This document shows, piece by piece, positions 31,364-36,314 of a stretch of DNA of 64,000 bases. The position numbers were made by a program, and so were the translations under genes. The notes beneath the pieces were generated by a model. The model ran no database searches. It worked only from the letters and a program-made list of their open reading frames with translations, and had not been told where the DNA came from. The DNA comes from an uncultured cyanobacterium (GTDB taxonomy: Bacteria; Cyanobacteriota; Cyanobacteriia; Cyanobacteriales; CAWCAG01), in the NCBI GenBank assembly GCA_963793425.1, contig CAWCAG010000009.1:672001-736000 (forward strand), in the 5' to 3' direction. Numbering within the stretch: position 1 is the first letter of the stretch; every line of letters starts with the position of its first letter.

Positions 31364-31392
31364 TTGACAGTTTTGTAGTATTTGTGTAATAT
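31364..31392 (+). promoter_or_regulatory. Consensus sigma70 promoter of the tRNA island
   Basis: TTGACA (31364-69) - 17 bp - TAATAT (31387-92), overlapped by inverted repeat ACAGTTTT/AAAACTGT and TGTAGT repeats. Confidence 0.75.
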
Positions 31393-31526
31393 AAAACTGT
31401 AGTGATGAGGAAATTTATAAAACTGCACCTTGAAAATTAAATATATAATACATCTTTTCAATTTTGATGCACTAATACAACAGTTGCGGGGATGCAGTAT
31501 CTTGCATTCCTATCAACACAGTAAAA

Positions 31527-31598
31527 GCATCGGTAGCCAAGTAGCAAGGCGTTGGTCTGCAAAACCAATCATCGTGGGTGCAATTCCCACCCGATGCT
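31527..31598 (+). tRNA. tRNA-Cys(GCA)
   Basis: GCATCGG/CCGATGC acceptor, TTGGT-CTGCAAA-ACCAA anticodon arm, U73, T-loop TGCAATT. Confidence 0.9.
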
Positions 31599-31620
31599 TT
31601 TACTGTGTTACATAAAATTT

Positions 31621-31705
31621 GGGTCGGCTCGCCTATAAGGGTGGGTAGCGGTCTGTAAAACCGTCACCTAGAGTGTTGTAGGTGCGAATCCTACCCGACC
31701 CACCA
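31621..31705 (+). tRNA. tRNA-Tyr(GTA), CCA encoded
   Basis: GGGTCGG/CCGACCC-A-CCA, GCGGT-CTGTAAA-ACCGT, long variable arm, atypical D arm. Confidence 0.88.
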
Positions 31706-31712
31706 ATGTTAA

Positions 31713-31799
31713 GGAGAGGTGGCCGAGTGGCTTAAGGCGCGGTCTTGGAAAGGCTGATCGGAGTTTACACCGACGGGGGTTCAAATCCCTCCCTCTCCG
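31713..31799 (+). tRNA. tRNA-Ser(GGA)
   Basis: GGAGAGG/CCTCTCC-G, CGGTC-TTGGAAA-GGCTG, long variable arm. Confidence 0.92.
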
Positions 31800-31843
31800 C
31801 CTATTTGTTGGAGTAGTCCATCGAAACCGCAGCATTGCATTAT

Positions 31844-31877
31844 AGCTCTGTGGTGTCACTGGCAACATCTCGCACAT
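31844..31877 (+). pseudogene. 5'-half tRNA remnant
   Basis: AGCTCTG-TG-GTGT-CACTGGCA-ACAT D-arm, then runs directly into tRNA-fMet. Confidence 0.45.
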
Positions 31878-31955
31878 CGCAGGGATGGAGCAACAGTTGG
31901 CTCACCAGGCTCATGCCCTGGAAATCTGTGAGTGCAATTCTCACCCCTGCTACCA
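31878..31955 (+). tRNA. tRNA-Met(CAT), initiator-type, CCA encoded
   Basis: CGCAGGG/CCCTGCT-A-CCA with unpaired C1:U72, CCAGG-CTCATGC-CCTGG. Confidence 0.85.
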
Positions 31956-31962
31956 ATACTTT

Positions 31963-32036
31963 GCAGGTATAATGTCAATTAGCAACATGAGGCTTTTGTA
32001 ATGCCTTCAAAGCCAGTGCAAATCTGGTCGCCTGCT
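31963..32036 (+). tRNA. tRNA-Thr(TGT), atypical
   Basis: GCAGGTA/CGCCTGC, AGGCT-TTTGTAA-TGCCT (31:39 U-U), GCCAG-TGCAAAT-CTGGT. Confidence 0.65.
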
Positions 32037-32097
32037 TTTATATGTTCTAATTAAGGAGGAGAGATTATGTTAGAAAATAAACCAGTTTGAAACTACC

Positions 32098-33367: not shown

Positions 33368-33427
33368 TTTAAATGTAGTAAAATAAAGGAGGTTATTTTC
33401 TGTTGCAACTAATTAAACACCGCATCT

Positions 33428-33672
33428 GCAATACAATCGCATTATCTAGCGTGACCTAATCATGAGAGCATACATACCGAGTACGAGAGGAATAAGTACC
33501 TCTGCCCTAGTTGCAGAGGGCGTGAAACATTGTTGGTACAAAGAACCCGGCAGGTTGGCTTAGAAGCAGCCATCCTTTAAAGAGTGCGTAATAGCTCATC
33601 GGCGGAGTGCCTTCTGATGTGATGAACGCTAAAAAGCTCTGATAACTTGCACGCCAAGAGCGATTGTATTGC
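33428..33672 (+). ncRNA. Putative structured ncRNA containing 23S rRNA sarcin-ricin loop and H42-H44 (GTPase-associated centre) mimics
   Basis: Perfect 13-bp closing stem; AGTACGAGAGGA at 33480-33491; 33546-33603 colinear with 23S 1051-1108; no ORF. Confidence 0.8.
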
Positions 33673-33802
33673 CATAAAAAAAATACCTTGCACAACAAAG
33701 CTATTCTACTTTGAATAAAGTTTGCTCATTCAGATTTGCAGCAAACTCTAGTACCTCTAGCAATGTTTAATGTTTAATGTTCAATGATTTAGGGAGTTAA
33801 CC

Positions 33803-35092
33803 ATGCCTGTAATTGTGATGGAAGTTAAGAGTGCAGAGAAACATCCTCATGCTGATACTTTGCAGCTCTATACTATGGTTGCTCCGGGTTATGAACAGGT
33901 ACAAATTGTTGCTAATCTGGAAAATATTTATCAAGTTGGTGATGTTGTGGCTGTTGCTTTAGTTGATTCTGTGCTTAAAGATGGGACGAAAATCAAACCT
34001 GTTAAGCTTAGAGGTATTTACTCTTTTGGTATGGCTTTAGGAAAAGTAGAAGCTGCAATTGCGAGGAATCTATCCCAAACCTATTGCCAAAAGGAGATAG
34101 TAGATAATGTACAGCTACAAAAATGGCCGAGTATTGAACTTTTAGCTAATGTACGTCGGAGTTTAGAAATTCTGGAGAAAACACCATCTGTTACTTATCG
34201 TAGCAAAGTCAAGCTAGATGGGACAAATGGTGGAGTGCAGATTTTTGCGAATGGTAAGGTTGCGGCTCAAAGTAGAACACAAATTATCACTCCAGAAAGT
34301 GATAATGCTGGGTTTGCTGCTTGGGTAAACCAGAACATTGACTATTTTGCAAACTTGGCTACCTCACAACATTTAACCTTGTTTGGTGAATGGTGCGGTA
34401 AAGGTATTCAAAAGCGTACAGCTATTGCTCAAATTGAACGTAAAGTTTTTGCTATCTTTGCGGTGCAATATGGAGGCATAGGTAGTCAGGTTGCTAAGTT
34501 AGCAGTTAATCCGGCTTCTATCCGTGCTTTGCTACCAGAACATTCTGACATTTTTGTCTTACCATTCTGGGGAGAAGCAATTACCTTGGATTTCGGGAAT
34601 GCAGCACAATTAGCACAAGCTGCTGAGAAGTTCAATTCTCTGGTTGAGGATGTTGAAGCAGTAGATCCTTGGGTTGAAGAGACTTTTGGCATCAAAGGCA
34701 TTGGTGAAGGATTGGTGATGTATCCGCAGAGTGATACCTTGGTAGATAGGCTAGAATATAGCCAATTGTTGTTTAAAGCTAAGGGTGATAAGCATCAGGT
34801 TGTCAAAACCAAAAAGCCTGTGCAAATTGCTCCTGAAGTGGCCAAGGGTGTTGATGAATTTGTCGAAATGTTCATTACGCCAGCACGTTTGGAACAAGCT
34901 ACAACGGAGGCTTGCCAAGGAGGGTTTGTGATGCAGAAAATTGGTGCATTTCTGAAATGGGTTAATACCGATGTTCAAAAAGAAAGTGTGGCTGAATTAG
35001 AAGCCGCAAACTTAACTTGGAAGCAGGTTAATAAAGGGGTGACTAAGGCAGCAAAAGTATGGTATCAGGGGAAGGTAATGGGTAATAGGTAA
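33803..35092 (+). CDS. RNA ligase (Rnl2/DRB0094-like nucleotidyltransferase) with N-terminal tRNA-binding OB fold
   Basis: N-terminal KHPHADTL..KLRGIYSFGM OB fold; ligase motifs KLDGTN (I), FGEW (III), FAIFAV (IIIa), GEGLV (IV), FKAK (V). Confidence 0.85.
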   Translation: MPVIVMEVKSAEKHPHADTLQLYTMVAPGYEQVQIVANLENIYQVGDVVAVALVDSVLKDGTKIKPVKLRGIYSFGMALGKVEAAIARNLSQTYCQKEIVDNVQLQKWPSIELLANVRRSLEILEKTPSVTYRSKVKLDGTNGGVQIFANGKVAAQSRTQIITPESDNAGFAAWVNQNIDYFANLATSQHLTLFGEWCGKGIQKRTAIAQIERKVFAIFAVQYGGIGSQVAKLAVNPASIRALLPEHSDIFVLPFWGEAITLDFGNAAQLAQAAEKFNSLVEDVEAVDPWVEETFGIKGIGEGLVMYPQSDTLVDRLEYSQLLFKAKGDKHQVVKTKKPVQIAPEVAKGVDEFVEMFITPARLEQATTEACQGGFVMQKIGAFLKWVNTDVQKESVAELEAANLTWKQVNKGVTKAAKVWYQGKVMGNR

Positions 35093-35229
35093 TAGGTAAT
35101 AGGTATGATCTCAAATCTGGTTCATAAAGTGCCTTGATAAAATCATGGCATCAAGTTTTCAAACCCTGCTCCCTACTCCCTACTCCCCACCCTAACCGAT
35201 AACCTTTGCAACCAAACCCAGGACTTAAT

Positions 35230-35685
35230 ATGACTATCTACTTCTATGGCCCTCGTGTCAAACCCTATGGTTGTTTTTCCAACTTTTCTCGTCATGGTTT
35301 TGAGTTAGACGGTGCTTGGTGGGCTACTAGTGAGCATTATTTTCAAGCACAAAAATTTATCAATACTGATGCAGAATGGGCTGAAAAAATTCGTGGGGCT
35401 AAAAGTCCTAAAGAAGCTGCTAAAATGGGACGCGATCGCAATTATCCTTTACGCAGTGATTGGGAAAAAGTTAAGGATGGCATTATGCAACGCGCTGTGT
35501 TGCAGAAGTTTTCTACCCACAATGATCTCCGTGAGATTCTTATTAATACAGGGGATGAGTTAATTGTGGAAAATGCTCCCGGAGATTACTACTGGGGTTG
35601 TGGCAAAGATGGCAGCGGCAAGAATAAGTTAGGAGAAATTCTCATGGCAGTACGAGAAACTTTGCAGAAGAATCAAGAGTCGTAA
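35230..35685 (+). CDS. NADAR family protein (YbiA-like)
   Basis: YGCFSNF, TSEHYFQAQKF, RSDWEKVK, KF..H..LREIL, DYYWG, GKNKLGEILM; likely start ATG 35230. Confidence 0.92.
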   Translation: MTIYFYGPRVKPYGCFSNFSRHGFELDGAWWATSEHYFQAQKFINTDAEWAEKIRGAKSPKEAAKMGRDRNYPLRSDWEKVKDGIMQRAVLQKFSTHNDLREILINTGDELIVENAPGDYYWGCGKDGSGKNKLGEILMAVRETLQKNQES

Positions 35686-35736
35686 AGGTAATCGGGAAGA
35701 GTTGATAGTAACATCTTCCCAACTTCCAATAATTAA

Positions 35737-35996
35737 GGGGAGGTTGTCTAAAAGGCAAGACACCGTAGAAAAGTTTTAAAACGGTTCCCACAAGGACAAT
35801 CGGGTTTTCCTTAGTAAGGTCAAAAGTTGCATCGCGACATTCCCTGAATGGGCAAACGGGTAACAGGTTGCAGAGGCACTGAAAGGAATTAATAGTCCGA
35901 AATGGGGGTGGTTCCCATTTGCTGTAAAGGTAGTAAGGAAGCACTTTTCCTGAAAGTTACCGTCGGTTGATGCGGGTTCAAATCCCGTCCTCTCCA
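35737..35996 (+). ncRNA. tRNA-like RNA with Ala identity and a ~190-nt structured insert in place of the anticodon arm
   Basis: GGGGAGG/CCTCTCC-A acceptor (G3.U70), D stem GTCT/AGAC, T arm GCGGG-TTCAAAT-CCCGT. Confidence 0.75.
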
Positions 35997-36041
35997 TTTT
36001 TAAAATCGGGAGTTTTGGAGTGTTGCAAAGAGGAAAATTAA

Positions 36042-36140
36042 GGGAATGTAGCTCAATTTGGCAGAGCAACCGACTTTTAATCGGTTGGTTGTGGGTAACT
36101 CCTAACGGAGACGCTACGCGAACAAGTCCCACCATTCCCA
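36042..36140 (+). tRNA. tRNA-Lys(TTT) with a 25-nt insertion in the T loop (probably inactivated)
   Basis: GGGAATG/CATTCCC-A, ACCGA-CTTTTAA-TCGGT; 32 nt between T-stem strands GTGGG and CCCAC. Confidence 0.85.
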
Positions 36141-36253
36141 CTTTTTCATAAAGGGGAGAAAACTATTAAACATTGGCAAAAACAACATTTCGTATTCTTG
36201 CTCGGAACGAGGCAATGCGTTGCAGAAAAGTCATTGCTAAGGAAGAATGCGAA

Positions 36254-36314
36254 GGCGCGAGGCAGAATGTAGTCTGAGGTGAGACTATGATTTTGCTTTC
36301 GCGCCCTTTTTTTT
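36254..36314 (+). terminator. Long rho-independent terminator closing the island
   Basis: GGCGCGA-GGCAGAAT-GTAGTCT / AGACTAT-GATTTTGCT-TTCGCGCC followed by T8. Confidence 0.75.

What the first reader, a model, noticed from the sequence alone, without database searches (positions are those of the whole stretch)
31364..36314. Translation-rescue/RNA-repair island: tRNA array plus RNA ligase, macrodomain, NADAR and two ribosome/tRNA-mimic RNAs
Seen: every element is on the + strand between one consensus promoter and one strong terminator, in the order Cys, Tyr, Ser, remnant, fMet, Thr, macrodomain, aspartic protease, Gly, Arg, rRNA-mimic RNA, RNA ligase, NADAR, long Ala-like RNA, Lys. Established: cryptic cyanobacterial tRNA arrays (Anabaena PCC 7120 trn operon) are induced by translational stress; Rnl-type ligases reseal cut RNAs; macrodomain and NADAR proteins remove ADP-ribose. 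Inference: an integrated kit that replaces (tRNAs), repairs (ligase), de-modifies (macro/NADAR) and decoys (mimic RNAs) the translation apparatus after toxin, antibiotic or phage attack. The combination with rRNA-mimic RNA appears undescribed to me.
Basis: partly seen in the sequence, partly recalled or inferred. Interest (0 to 1): 0.88.

Follow-up and report, generated by a model that had tools for sequence, protein, structure and literature searches.

The report
Ribosome-mimic RNA in tRNA repair operon
A stress-type operon of spare tRNA genes in a cyanobacterium also carries RNA-repair enzymes and a conserved small RNA that copies the spot on the ribosome where elongation factors and several toxins act, and this RNA family seems not to have been described.

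Summary
Window 31364-36314 is one + strand unit running from a consensus promoter to a strong terminator. It holds eight tRNA or tRNA-like genes, all second copies of housekeeping tRNAs. It also holds a MacroD-type macrodomain, a retropepsin-like protease, a tRNA_bind-Rnl ligase, a YbiA-type NADAR and two non-tRNA structured RNAs.

It is a cut-down cyanobacterial long tRNA array (L-array). It has the tandem TGTAGTAT operator boxes and the leader motif seen at other arrays.

The main result is the 206-nt RNA at 33449-33654. It joins an exact copy of the 12-nt sarcin-ricin loop core to a 23S H42-44 (GTPase-associated centre) fold. It is not a pseudogene: only 37 nt match the genome's own 23S. 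Across 42 distinct copies, 24 of 53 pairs show compensatory changes. The pattern occurs in at least 120 cyanobacterial species genomes.

It sits at a fixed array position, or directly before NADAR, KptA/Tpt1, ligase or AAA genes. The ligase, NADAR and protease recur with it. The studied Anabaena trn operon lacks it, and my searches found no description.

How it works is inferred, not shown. My best guess is a decoy or bait for agents that attack the ribosomal factor-binding site.

The parts
31364..31392 (+). Sigma-70-type promoter, TTGACA-17-TAATAT.
   Evidence: matches 10 of 12 consensus positions.
31374..31405 (+). Three TrcR-operator-like boxes: TGTAGTAT at 31374, TGTAATAT at 31385 (overlapping the -10 box) and TGTAGTGA at 31398.
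   Evidence: The motif TGTAGTAT overlapping the -10 box of the trn promoter is from PMC10272220 (passages). The same tandem boxes lie upstream of arrays L029 and L027 and of the PCC 7120 trn operon.
31427..31436 (+). Conserved array leader motif ACCTTGAAAA.
   Evidence: the same motif lies upstream of the first tRNA in L021, L024, L025, L027 and L031, with a variant in L029.
31526..31599 (+). tRNA-Cys(GCA), a second copy.
   Evidence: It is 60.8% identical to the housekeeping copy.
31621..31705 (+). tRNA-Tyr(GUA), a second copy with CCA encoded.
   Evidence: (30.7 bits). It is 70.6% identical to the housekeeping copy and 85.5% to an array tRNA in L025.
31713..31801 (+). tRNA-Ser(GGA), a second copy.
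31878..31955 (+). Weak tRNA-Met(CAU)-like gene.
   Evidence: (38.4 bits). Initiator identity is not supported (read by eye).
31963..32036 (+). Degenerate Thr(UGU)-like tRNA.
   Evidence: 28.8 bits against a gathering score of 29. ARAGORN does not call it.
32098..32616 (+). MacroD/YmdB-type macrodomain protein, 172 aa.
   Evidence: Pfam Macro 3e-49. NCBIfam NF001664 at 226.4 bits against a cut-off of 200. Closest solved relatives are MacroD2, MacroD1 and YmdB.
32718..33161 (+). Retropepsin-like clan AA aspartic protease, 147 aa, with a DTGA motif.
   Evidence: PF13975 at 33.6 bits against a cut-off of 28.2. Homologues lie beside the mimic or ligase in other arrays.
33196..33266 (+). tRNA-Gly(UCC), a second copy.
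   Evidence: It is 90% identical to an array tRNA in L024 and 66% to the housekeeping copy.
33295..33367 (+). tRNA-Arg(UCU), a second copy. This is the conserved left neighbour of the mimic.
33449..33654 (+). rRNA-mimic RNA. Closing stems P1 and P2, a sarcin-ricin-loop hairpin, a variable hairpin, stem P5 and a 23S H42-H43-H44 fold.
   Evidence: Alignments A1 and A2. Covariation. Distribution.
33480..33491 (+). Sarcin-ricin loop core AGUACGAGAGGA, identical to the genome's own 23S.
   Evidence: The core is invariant or nearly so across the 42 copies; one divergent second copy (L025b) differs.
33535..33611 (+). GTPase-associated-centre (L11/thiostrepton domain) fold.
   Evidence: Rfam LSU at 61 bits, model positions 1080-1157. 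Compensatory changes in H42, H43 and H44. The 1072/1092/1099 triple covaries.
33803..35092 (+). ATP-dependent RNA ligase, 429 aa: an N-terminal tRNA_bind OB domain, an Rnl nucleotidyltransferase domain and a C-terminal helical domain.
   Evidence: Pfam. PDB sequence hits cover only the OB domain. The AlphaFold model has pLDDT 74.6. Foldseek's best matches are NgrRnl and T4 Rnl2.
35230..35685 (+). YbiA-type NADAR protein. The ORF could also start at the TTG at 35206.
   Evidence: Pfam 9e-43. TIGR02464 at 163 bits. E. coli YbiA (2b3w) at 1.8e-39.
35737..35996 (+). Ala-identity tRNA-like long RNA. It has G3.U70 and A73, a D-like arm, a 4-bp stem with a 13-nt loop, an insert of about 175 nt at the variable-arm position and a T arm.
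36042..36140 (+). tRNA-Lys(UUU)-like gene with an expanded T loop: a hairpin followed by ACGCUACGCGAAC.
   Evidence: Rfam 57.7 bits. Fold z -3.55. The same T-loop expansion occurs in other arrays.
36254..36312 (+). Intrinsic terminator: a long hairpin followed by a U run.
   Evidence: -32 kcal/mol, z -5.07.

Best explanation
The region is a shortened member of the cyanobacterial long tRNA arrays (L-arrays, the Anabaena trn-operon type). It is one operon, very probably repressed by a TrcR-type repressor and switched on when translation is impaired.

It would supply three things:
1. Spare tRNAs.
2. An RNA healing-and-sealing set: an Rnl-type ligase with a tRNA-binding domain, and MacroD and NADAR enzymes that handle ADP-ribose adducts or by-products.
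3. Accessory structured RNAs cut out of the same transcript.

The main accessory RNA (33449-33654) is a free-standing copy of the two 23S rRNA elements that form the ribosomal factor-binding site: the sarcin-ricin loop and the H42-44 GTPase-associated centre. I propose that it works as a decoy or bait. Once released from the array transcript, it would compete with ribosomes for agents that recognise these elements. Such agents include SRL-cutting RNases of the VapC20 kind and GAC-modifying ADP-ribosyltransferases of the Tre23 kind. The neighbouring enzymes would then repair or de-modify hit RNAs.

Shown here: the anatomy, the RNA's conserved structure, its distribution, and its linkage to arrays and to NAD/ADP-ribose RNA-repair genes.
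Inferred: co-transcription, stress induction, processing, and the decoy action itself.
For: L-array identity:
- All island tRNAs are second copies.
- They are 56-79% identical to the housekeeping isoacceptors but 77-90% identical to tRNAs of other arrays.
- The gene order Met-Thr-Gly-Arg(TCT) matches the PCC 7120 trn operon.
- The operator boxes and the leader motif are shared with other arrays.

The mimic is a real, selected RNA:
- Only 37 nt match the genome's own 23S, at 94.6%, and the own GAC differs in H43.
- On 42 distinct copies, 90.9% of cells are paired, against 39-55% for slid controls. 24 of 53 pairs change on both sides (shuffle mean 11.0; 0 of 500 shuffles reach 24). The covariation score is 0.197 against 0.04-0.08 for slid controls.
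- The triple 1072/1092/1099 is UUA in 37 copies and CCG in 2, with 3 exceptions. This fits the known GAC base triple, which I recall from memory.
- The SRL 12-mer is essentially invariant.

Linkage:
- The mimic sits between Arg(TCT)/Val and Ala/His in arrays of 10 of 16 genomes examined at 20 kb.
- First downstream features of 132 copies: tRNA 66, NADAR 16, unknown 289-aa protein 9, KptA 7, ligase 6, methyltransferase 2, AAA 1.
- PARG, KptA, NUDIX and AAA genes lie near it.
- Ligase loci hold tRNAs in 12 of 22 genomes and the mimic in 8 of 22.

Precedents, read as passages or sections:
- The trn operon is induced by translational stress together with rtcB, after VapC, MazF and RelE toxins rise (PMC8421152).
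- Tre23 ADP-ribosylates H44 at nt 1095-1098, and VapC20/26 cut the SRL (PMC8661411).
- NADAR, macro and PARG enzymes reverse RNA ADP-ribosylation (PMC11833690).
Against: - There is no expression, processing or binding data. No RNA run was listed.
- Tre23 acted on translating ribosomes, not on free rRNA (PMC8661411), so a free GAC RNA may not be a substrate.
- A1067 and G1068, universal in rRNA and central to factor and thiopeptide contacts, vary in the mimic: position 1067 is A32/G7/C2/U1 and position 1068 is A28/G13. The GAC half therefore seems selected for its fold, for example L11 binding, more than for factor-like or drug-like recognition.
- Of 132 copies, 41 stand directly before protein genes, which would also fit a cis-regulatory leader.
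- In 10 of 22 genomes the ligase locus has no tRNA nearby.
- The genome itself has only an 84-aa KptA fragment.
- No toxin that would be decoyed was identified.
- The exact pattern gave no hit in viral contigs.
Confidence: 0.4

Rival explanations
1. The mimic is a protein sponge or sensor rather than a toxin decoy. It would bind free stalk-base proteins (uL11, uL10-L7/L12) and/or a translational GTPase such as EF-G. By doing so it would either tune translation or the stringent response during stress, or report ribosome damage and control the repair gene downstream. This would work like the rRNA-mimic leaders of ribosomal-protein operons.
For: - The GAC fold, the junction bases and the base triple are kept, while the factor and drug contact bases 1067 and 1068 drift.
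- 41 of 132 copies lie directly upstream, on the same strand, of NADAR, KptA, ligase, methyltransferase, AAA or the unknown 289-aa gene.
- In the window the mimic ends 148 nt before the ligase start.
- SRL and GAC oligoribonucleotides are known to bind EF-G (Munishkin and Wool 1997). I recall this paper and did not read it here.
Against: - 66 of 132 copies are followed first by a tRNA gene, with no protein gene to regulate.
- In L217 the mimic lies after the protein genes.
- There is no Rfam L10_leader hit or any other leader hit, even at E up to 1.
- None of the loci examined has a ribosomal-protein gene next to the mimic.
- No known ribosomal protein requires the invariant SRL loop bases. 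This is textbook knowledge, not tested here.
Confidence: 0.27
2. The protein set is a Tpt1-type healing-and-sealing pathway. Macro and NADAR only clear ADP-ribose by-products such as ADP-ribose 1''-phosphate or the cyclic phosphate. They do not reverse toxin-made ADP-ribosylation. On this view the island repairs cut tRNAs and the 'de-modify' part of the first reader's model is wrong.
For: - KptA/Tpt1 lies next to the mimic in several genomes: L023, L026, L028, the L057 group, and 7 of 132 copies as the first downstream gene.
- NUDIX lies beside KptA in L028.
- The review PMC9503650 links KptA, 2H, Macro and NADAR to RNA-ligase repair (passages).
- The macrodomain is MacroD-type, the class that includes ADP-ribose-1''-phosphate phosphatases.
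Against: - This genome has no intact KptA, only an 84-aa fragment.
- No kinase or 2H phosphoesterase was seen in the island.
- NADARs and macrodomains are shown to reverse guanosine-linked and phosphate-end RNA ADP-ribosylation (PMC11833690 abstract and discussion).
- Microbial PARG, which reverses 2'-OH RNA ADP-ribosylation, is the commonest protein near the mimic, in 8 loci.
Confidence: 0.35
3. The island is a decaying remnant of a mobile L-array. The protein genes and odd RNAs are hitch-hiking insertions with no joint function in this host.
For: - The array is reduced to eight tRNA-like genes. Two are degenerate and one stretch is unrecognisable.
- The island is missing from the same-genus genome G001, where the two flanks lie on different contigs.
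- The L-array paper reports frequent insertions, duplications and deletions (PMC8421152 section 22).
Against: - All four ORFs are intact, with family scores above the curated cut-offs.
- The promoter, operator boxes, leader and terminator are intact.
- The same genes and RNAs recur together in many genera at 58-78% identity, with purifying structure conservation.
Confidence: 0.12
4. The rRNA-like stretch is a dead 23S fragment or an assembly artefact.
For: Rfam assigns it only to the LSU rRNA model.
Against: - Only 37 nt resemble the genome's own 23S.
- The element joins SRL and GAC about 80 nt apart, whereas they lie about 1600 nt apart in 23S. The SRL position in the 23S gene is and the GAC position from the Rfam model coordinates.
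- Compensatory changes occur in 24 of 53 pairs.
- It is present in at least 120 species genomes.
Confidence: 0.01

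Closest known systems
Anabaena/Nostoc sp. PCC 7120 trn operon and other cyanobacterial L-arrays (PMC8421152), with their repressor TrcR (PMC10272220).
   Same: - A one-strand cluster of redundant tRNA genes.
- TGTAGTAT boxes over the promoter.
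- The same core gene order: Met, Thr, Gly, (Val), Arg(TCT).
- Array-type tRNA sequences.
   Different: - Only eight tRNA-like genes, against 24 called by ARAGORN on the PCC 7120 plasmid.
- Four protein genes and two non-tRNA RNAs are embedded.
- In the PCC 7120 operon Arg(TCT) and Ala(TGC) are 5 nt apart, with no mimic and no SRL 12-mer.
23S rRNA GTPase-associated centre (H42-44, the L11/thiostrepton domain) and sarcin-ricin loop (H95).
   Same: - Rfam LSU hit above the gathering score.
- Helices H42 top, H43 and H44 are kept through compensatory changes.
- The 1072/1092/1099 triple covaries.
- A1095, A1088 and U1060 are kept.
- The SRL bulged-G motif and GAGA loop are identical.
   Different: - It is a free 206-nt unit closed by its own stems.
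- SRL and GAC are joined about 80 nt apart.
- Positions 1067, 1068, 1070, 1096 and 1097 vary.
- The SRL 'flexible region' (C2666/C2667) is replaced by a plain stem.
rRNA-mimic leaders of ribosomal-protein operons, such as the L10 leader (Rfam RF00557).
   Same: An RNA outside the ribosome that imitates an rRNA protein-binding site. Many copies lie upstream of genes.
   Different: - No Rfam leader hit.
- Never next to ribosomal-protein genes in the loci examined.
- Half of the copies are followed by tRNA genes.
- Much closer to rRNA in sequence than such leaders; the leader comparison is recalled, not tested.
Rnl5 (Naegleria NgrRnl, Deinococcus DraRnl) and T4 Rnl2 RNA ligases.
   Same: - Foldseek's best matches: 6vte and 5cot at E about 1e-10, 2hvr at 7e-9.
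- PF09414.
- An N-terminal OB-type domain before the nucleotidyltransferase domain, as in Rnl5.
- KxDG, GEW, EGLV and KxK motifs, read by eye from the sequence.
   Different: - The N-terminal domain is a Trbp111/PheRS-B2-type tRNA_bind domain.
- There is an extra C-terminal helical domain.
- Sequence identity to the solved ligases is 14-17%, and TM-scores are only about 0.3 for the whole chain.
RNA-repair operons with mimic RNAs or ADP-ribose enzymes: rsr-yrlA-rtcBA (Y RNA-like tRNA mimic) and Deinococcus DRB0100-DRB0098 (ligase-PARG-PNK).
   Same: - A ligase is linked with ADP-ribose hydrolases (PMC11833690 discussion).
- A structured RNA with a tRNA-like module lies beside a repair ligase.
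   Different: - The YrlA model scores 24.3 bits against a gathering score of 69, and tmRNA scores 18.2 against 47.
- The RNAs here imitate rRNA, or a tRNA of Ala identity, and are embedded in a tRNA array.

Membership tests
Cyanobacterial L-array / trn-type operon | A dense one-strand cluster of tRNA genes that duplicate the housekeeping set. | tested here: met
   Eight tRNA-like genes lie in 4.6 kb on the + strand. A full housekeeping set exists elsewhere in the genome. The cluster is far shorter than typical L-arrays.
Cyanobacterial L-array / trn-type operon | [quoted passage not shown] | tested here: met
   Boxes at 31374, 31385 and 31398. The motif is from PMC10272220. By itself the motif is not rare in the window: 9 matches against 6.5 expected. 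The clustering at the promoter is what counts.
Cyanobacterial L-array / trn-type operon | Induction by translational stress and repression by TrcR. | not testable with these tools
   No RNA run was listed. I did not search for a TrcR homologue because I held no sequence for it.
23S rRNA GAC fold (H42-44) | The three-helix junction with H43 and H44, supported by covariation. | tested here: met
   Rfam 61 bits against a gathering score of 50. Helices 8, 9 and 11 have compensatory pairs.
23S rRNA GAC fold (H42-44) | Universally conserved A1067 and G1068 in the loop. | tested here: not met
   Position 1067 is A32/G7/C2/U1 and position 1068 is A28/G13 among 42 copies. The window copy itself has A1067 and G1068.
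Sarcin-ricin loop | The bulged-G motif plus GAGA tetraloop (AGUACGAGAGGA) closed by a stem. | tested here: met
   An exact 12-mer. Stem helix 3 is 91.6% paired, with 2 compensatory pairs.
Ribosomal-protein leader (L10_leader and the like) | A match to the leader model and a position upstream of ribosomal-protein genes. | tested here: not met
   No such hit at E up to 1. Neighbours are tRNA or repair genes.
ATP-dependent RNA ligase (Rnl2/Rnl5-like) | A nucleotidyltransferase domain with the motif I lysine (KxDG) and an Rnl fold. | tested here: met
   PF09414 at 47.2 bits against a cut-off of 27. KLDG is read in the sequence, and K137, L138 and G140 are invariant in alignment A4. Foldseek's best matches are NgrRnl and Rnl2. 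Ligase activity was not tested.
MacroD-type macrodomain | A score above the curated equivalog cut-off. | tested here: met
   NF001664 at 226.4 bits against a cut-off of 200.
NADAR, YbiA subfamily | The NADAR domain, with a Glu in the last strand. | tested here: inconclusive
   The domain is met: PF08719 at 146.8 bits and TIGR02464 at 163.2 bits. In the alignment to YbiA (2b3w), VEN aligns with VEH. Which Glu is catalytic comes from the paper's text, and I did not map it residue by residue.
tmRNA (for the Ala-like RNA) | A match to the tmRNA model, and a tag reading frame. | tested here: not met
   Rfam 18.2 bits against a gathering score of 47. ARAGORN calls none here. The genome has a normal tmRNA elsewhere. 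Only the Ala-type acceptor stem and the T arm are shared.
Y RNA-like YrlA | A match to RF02553. | tested here: not met
   24.3 bits against a gathering score of 69, and the hit spans two separate genes.

The most novel reading that the evidence does not exclude
L-arrays are general immunity and repair islands for the translation apparatus. Besides spare tRNAs, they would encode a natural 'ribosome-in-pieces' RNA, the SRL plus the GAC. This RNA would serve as a sacrificial decoy or a damage sensor for ribotoxins and RNA-ADP-ribosylating toxins aimed at the factor-binding site. Bait tRNA-like RNAs (the Ala-identity long RNA and the tRNAs with expanded T loops) would serve in the same way. A co-evolving enzyme set (Rnl ligase, KptA, PARG, MacroD, NADAR, NUDIX) would mend or de-modify what has been hit. 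That would be the first RNA decoy of an rRNA functional centre.
Probability: 0.33. Interest if true: 0.93.

Novelty: new variant of a known kind. Interest (0 to 1): 0.85.

Why it matters
tRNA arrays are known to help cyanobacteria survive translational stress, but how they do so is open.

This region shows that many arrays carry more than tRNAs. They hold a conserved, structured copy of the ribosome's elongation-factor docking site and a recurring set of RNA-ligation and ADP-ribose-processing enzymes.

The RNA family occurs in at least 120 cyanobacterial species genomes. Rfam sees it only as a piece of 23S rRNA. It is absent from the one array that has been studied experimentally, which may explain why it has gone unnoticed.

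If it is a decoy or sensor, it would be a new principle of defence against ribotoxins, RNA-targeting ADP-ribosyltransferases or thiopeptides. It would also be a ready-made minimal SRL+GAC RNA for ribosome biochemistry. Even if its role is only to bind stalk proteins, it would be a new class of rRNA mimic, linking ribosome status to RNA repair.

Tried and rejected
- RNA-seq evidence: the look-up of sequencing runs listed no RNA holder for the island. Expression and processing are therefore untested, and read laying was not used.
- MFE folding of the Ala-like RNA alone is not better than shuffles (z -0.46). Its reality rests on conservation instead.
- RNAalifold on A1 paired invariant stretches arbitrarily, for example UACAUAC with GUGUGUA, with no covariation. 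I replaced that structure with a homology-guided one and tested it.
- The irregular lower H42-like helix and the internal loop (5' GAGAAC, 3' AGUAACUGAGAA) could not be settled. A second S-turn there is only an eye impression.
- The unknown 280-289-aa protein that follows the mimic in 9 copies gave no Pfam or NCBIfam hit, nothing usable in the protein atlas, and an AlphaFold model with pLDDT 40. I draw no inference from it.
- The PDB sequence search for the ligase found only the OB domain.
- Rfam on seven array loci showed no further rRNA-like modules among the 150 matches listed; 14 lower-scoring matches were not seen.
- The viral-contig scan with the exact SRL-GAC pattern gave 0 hits. The pattern matches only 29 of the 42 aligned copies, so divergent copies would be missed.
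- The plasmid search found one full-length copy, in Kovacikia minuta.
- I considered and rejected three identities for the accessory RNAs: a group I intron in the Ala-like RNA (no Rfam hit at E up to 10), tmRNA and YrlA (both below the gathering score), and a 23S pseudogene.
- I did not test what fraction of all L-arrays carry the mimic, or whether the genome has a TrcR homologue.
- The supplement of PMC8421152 was searched only as stored text. That text is cut and excludes PDFs, and its Figure 6B and Supplementary Figure S8 were not visible. They may show some of the embedded protein genes.

Full report
**1. What is there**

Window 31364-36314 is a single + strand unit. It begins with a near-consensus promoter, TTGACA-17-TAATAT, at 31364-31392. 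It ends with a long hairpin at 36254-36305 (-32 kcal/mol, z -5.07) followed by a U run.

tRNA and tRNA-like genes:
- ARAGORN finds Cys, Tyr, Ser(GGA), Met(CAT), Gly(TCC) and Arg(TCT).
- Rfam adds a Lys(UUU)-like tRNA at 36042-36140, whose T loop carries a 31-nt insertion (57.7 bits).
- Rfam also gives a borderline Thr-like hit at 31963-32036 (28.8 bits against a gathering score of 29).

Four intact ORFs lie between the tRNAs:
- A MacroD/YmdB-type macrodomain: Pfam 3e-49; NF001664 at 226 bits against a cut-off of 200; closest solved relatives MacroD2, MacroD1 and YmdB.
- A retropepsin-like aspartic protease with a DTGA motif.
- A 429-aa ligase made of a Trbp111/PheRS-B2-type tRNA_bind domain, an Rnl nucleotidyltransferase domain and a helical C-terminal domain. 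Its AlphaFold model (pLDDT 74.6) is closest to Naegleria NgrRnl and T4 Rnl2.
- A YbiA-type NADAR: E. coli YbiA at 1.8e-39.

**2. It is a reduced L-array**

- The genome has a complete housekeeping tRNA set elsewhere, so every island tRNA is a second copy.
- The island tRNAs are only 56-79% identical to their housekeeping isoacceptors. They are 77-90% identical to tRNAs in arrays of other cyanobacteria.
- The promoter carries three boxes: TGTAGTAT, TGTAATAT and TGTAGTGA, at 31374, 31385 and 31398. In Anabaena PCC 7120, TGTAGTAT overlapping the -10 box is the footprinted site of the repressor TrcR at the trn operon (PMC10272220, passages).
- The same tandem boxes and a shared leader motif, ACCTTGAAAA, precede arrays in other genomes. 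The boxes also precede the PCC 7120 trn operon itself.
- The order Met-Thr-Gly-Arg(TCT) is that of the PCC 7120 operon.
- The island is missing from the same-genus genome G001. Both flanks exist there at 87-88% identity, but on different contigs.

**3. The rRNA mimic**

The spacer between Arg(TCT) and the ligase holds a 206-nt element at 33449-33654.
- Rfam scores 33535-33611 as bacterial LSU rRNA, model positions 1080-1157. That is the H42-44 GTPase-associated centre (61 bits against a gathering score of 50).
- About 45 nt upstream lies AGUACGAGAGGA, the sarcin-ricin loop core. It is identical to the genome's own 23S SRL, occurs once in the window, and appears in none of 100 shuffles.
- It is not a recent rRNA fragment. 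Only 37 nt match the genome's own 23S, and the own GAC has a different H43.

Homologues at 68-78% identity occur widely:
- In 17 of 60 relatives.
- In 34 of 400 other cyanobacterial genomes, mostly of the same order, with 2 in another order.
Every named hit among the rows shown is cyanobacterial, except one contig labelled as an Actinomycetota MAG.
- The same pattern gives no hit in viral contigs.

I derived a structure from rRNA homology and by eye. It has closing stems P1 and P2, the SRL hairpin, a variable hairpin, stem P5, an H42-like helix, H43 and H44. I tested it on 42 distinct copies:
- 90.9% of cells are paired, against 39-55% when partners are slid.
- 24 of 53 pairs change on both sides. 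The shuffle mean is 11.0, and 0 of 500 shuffles reach 24.
- The covariation score is 0.197, against 0.04-0.08 for slid controls.
- The shuffle control does not keep relatedness. The structure was partly derived from these same sequences, so the slid control flatters it somewhat.

Conservation of individual positions:
- Positions 1072/1092/1099 are UUA in 37 copies and CCG in 2, with 3 exceptions. This is the pattern expected for the known GAC base triple, which I recall from memory.
- G1071, A1088, G1093, U1094, A1095 and A1098 are invariant.
- A1067 (A32/G7/C2/U1), G1068, A1070, A1096 and U1097 vary.
- The SRL 12-mer is essentially invariant. One divergent second copy differs.

**4. Linkage**

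Position in arrays:
- In arrays of 10 of 16 genomes examined at 20 kb, the mimic sits between Val or Arg(TCT) and Ala/His/Ser.
- Over 132 distinct copies, the first same-strand feature downstream is a tRNA in 66, NADAR in 16, an unknown 280-289-aa protein in 9, KptA/Tpt1 in 7, the ligase in 6, a methyltransferase in 2 and an AAA ATPase in 1. Nothing was recognised in 24, and many of those loci had only 300-nt flanks.

Contexts outside arrays:
- mimic, methyltransferase, KptA, AAA (L023).
- mimic, KptA, AAA, NADAR (L026).
- mimic, AAA, KptA, NUDIX (L028).

Other neighbours:
- Microbial-type PARG lies within 3 kb in 8 loci.
- The Asp protease lies within 3 kb in 4 loci.

Ligase loci:
- Homologues occur in 22 of 300 other genomes of the order.
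- In 12 of those genomes the ligase lies among tRNA genes. In 8 the mimic is also present, often with NADAR, the protease or PARG.
- In 10 genomes, with the more distant homologues, no tRNA is nearby.

**5. Other RNAs**

The Ala-like RNA (35737-35996):
- It is conserved at 76-83% identity in 16 of 300 other genomes. In several it lies about 1 kb from the mimic on the same contig.
- It has an invariant acceptor stem with G3.U70 and A73, and no encoded CCA.
- It has a D-like arm, and a 4-bp stem that covaries (U-A, U.G, C-G, G-C) closing a 12-15-nt loop.
- It has an insert of about 175 nt at the variable-arm position, and a T arm.
- It is neither a tmRNA nor a YrlA by Rfam score.

The expanded T loop of the Lys gene:
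- It consists of UA, a covarying hairpin, and then ACGCUACGCGAAC.
- It recurs in Met, Gly and other tRNA-like genes of other arrays, and once in an Ala-like RNA.
- I found no paper on it. The L-array paper does not mention T loops.

**6. Literature**

- PMC8421152 (sections and passages): L-arrays are described, and the trn operon is induced by translational stress together with rtcB, an HNH gene and dpsA. Neighbourhoods of L-operons are said to be enriched in RNA-processing and translation genes. Its text has no occurrence of 23S, NADAR, macro, KptA, PARG, ADP-ribos or protease. The stored supplement text has none either, but it is cut and excludes PDFs. Figures are not held.
- Full-text searches that combined tRNA array terms with rRNA-mimic, 23S-fragment, sarcin-ricin, GTPase-associated or decoy terms found no description.
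- The PCC 7120 operon, the only one studied at the bench, lacks the mimic.
- Precedents for attack on these rRNA sites: Tre23 ADP-ribosylates H44 at nt 1095-1098 on translating ribosomes, and VapC20/26 cut the SRL (PMC8661411).
- Precedents for reversal: NADAR acts on guanosine-ADPr RNA, macro and ARH enzymes on phosphate ends, and PARG on 2'-OH adducts (PMC11833690).
- The review PMC9503650 links KptA, 2H, Macro and NADAR to ligase-based RNA repair.

**7. Reading**

- Secure: the anatomy, the L-array identity, the reality and spread of the mimic RNA family, and its linkage to arrays and to NAD/ADP-ribose RNA-repair genes.
- Likely but untested: one stress-induced transcript, processed at the tRNA boundaries.
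- Inferred: what the mimic does.

I favour a decoy or bait for agents that recognise the SRL or GAC (confidence 0.4), for three reasons:
- The solvent-exposed SRL loop is kept letter for letter.
- The partners are repair and de-modification enzymes.
- The host operon is a translational-stress response that follows induction of the cell's own RNase toxins.

The drift of A1067 and G1068, and the many copies that stand before protein genes, keep a stalk-protein or GTPase sponge or sensor in play (0.27).

Whether macro and NADAR reverse toxin marks or clear Tpt1 by-products is open.

The island as a whole is a new variant of a known system. The mimic RNA itself has no described counterpart that I could find.

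Noticed in passing
window 36042-36140; L021 (5 cases), L029, L033, L091, L075; own genome C7 around 1196309: A recurring expansion of the tRNA T loop: T stem, UA, a hairpin whose sequence covaries, then the conserved ACGCUACGCGAAC(A/G)A. It occurs in several isoacceptors of L-arrays (Lys, Met, Gly and others) and once in an Ala-like RNA. ARAGORN misses these genes. I found no description of it.
   Followed up: partly
L021:15390-15463, L024:9737-9810, L216:701-774; L251:588-660: At the array position where most arrays have tRNA-Arg(UCU), just before the mimic, three arrays have a tRNA with anticodon CUA, which ARAGORN labels 'Pyl'. It is 90% identical to the window's Arg(UCU) gene. One locus has a tRNA with anticodon UUA, labelled 'Stop'. 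These may be suppressor tRNAs inside arrays.
   Followed up: no
plasmid records such as NZ_CP033215.1 1806-1877 (Clostridioides difficile, 10.5 kb) and NZ_CP122532.1 (Vagococcus fluvialis, 3.1 kb): Small plasmids carry a 72-nt stretch that is 83-85% identical to the GAC part of the mimic, in unannotated DNA. It could be an rRNA piece or another GAC-like element on mobile DNA.
   Followed up: partly
L248, L250, L251, L252 (and 9 of 132 mimic copies): In one family of genomes the mimic is followed by a conserved unknown protein of 280-289 aa and a ThiF-like E1 protein, often with a Peptidase_M90 and VWA/CoxE-like proteins nearby. The fold of the unknown protein could not be predicted.
   Followed up: partly
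window 53072-53128 (-): An NsiR1 small RNA (Rfam 47.9 bits against a gathering score of 39). This marks the organism as a heterocyst-forming cyanobacterium.
   Followed up: no
window 33761-33790 and many sites in the genome: A tandem heptamer repeat (AATGTTT-type) lies just upstream of the ligase start. Dozens of near-identical copies occur across the genome.
   Followed up: no
own genome C7:584951-585097 (-): Only an 84-aa open frame matches the C-terminal third of KptA/Tpt1. It looks like a gene remnant, while intact KptA genes accompany the mimic in other genomes.
   Followed up: no
window 36352-38133 (-): A CHAT-domain (caspase-like) protein with a cadherin-like domain lies convergent to the island's terminator. 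Many paralogues are scattered in G001 and G002.
   Followed up: no
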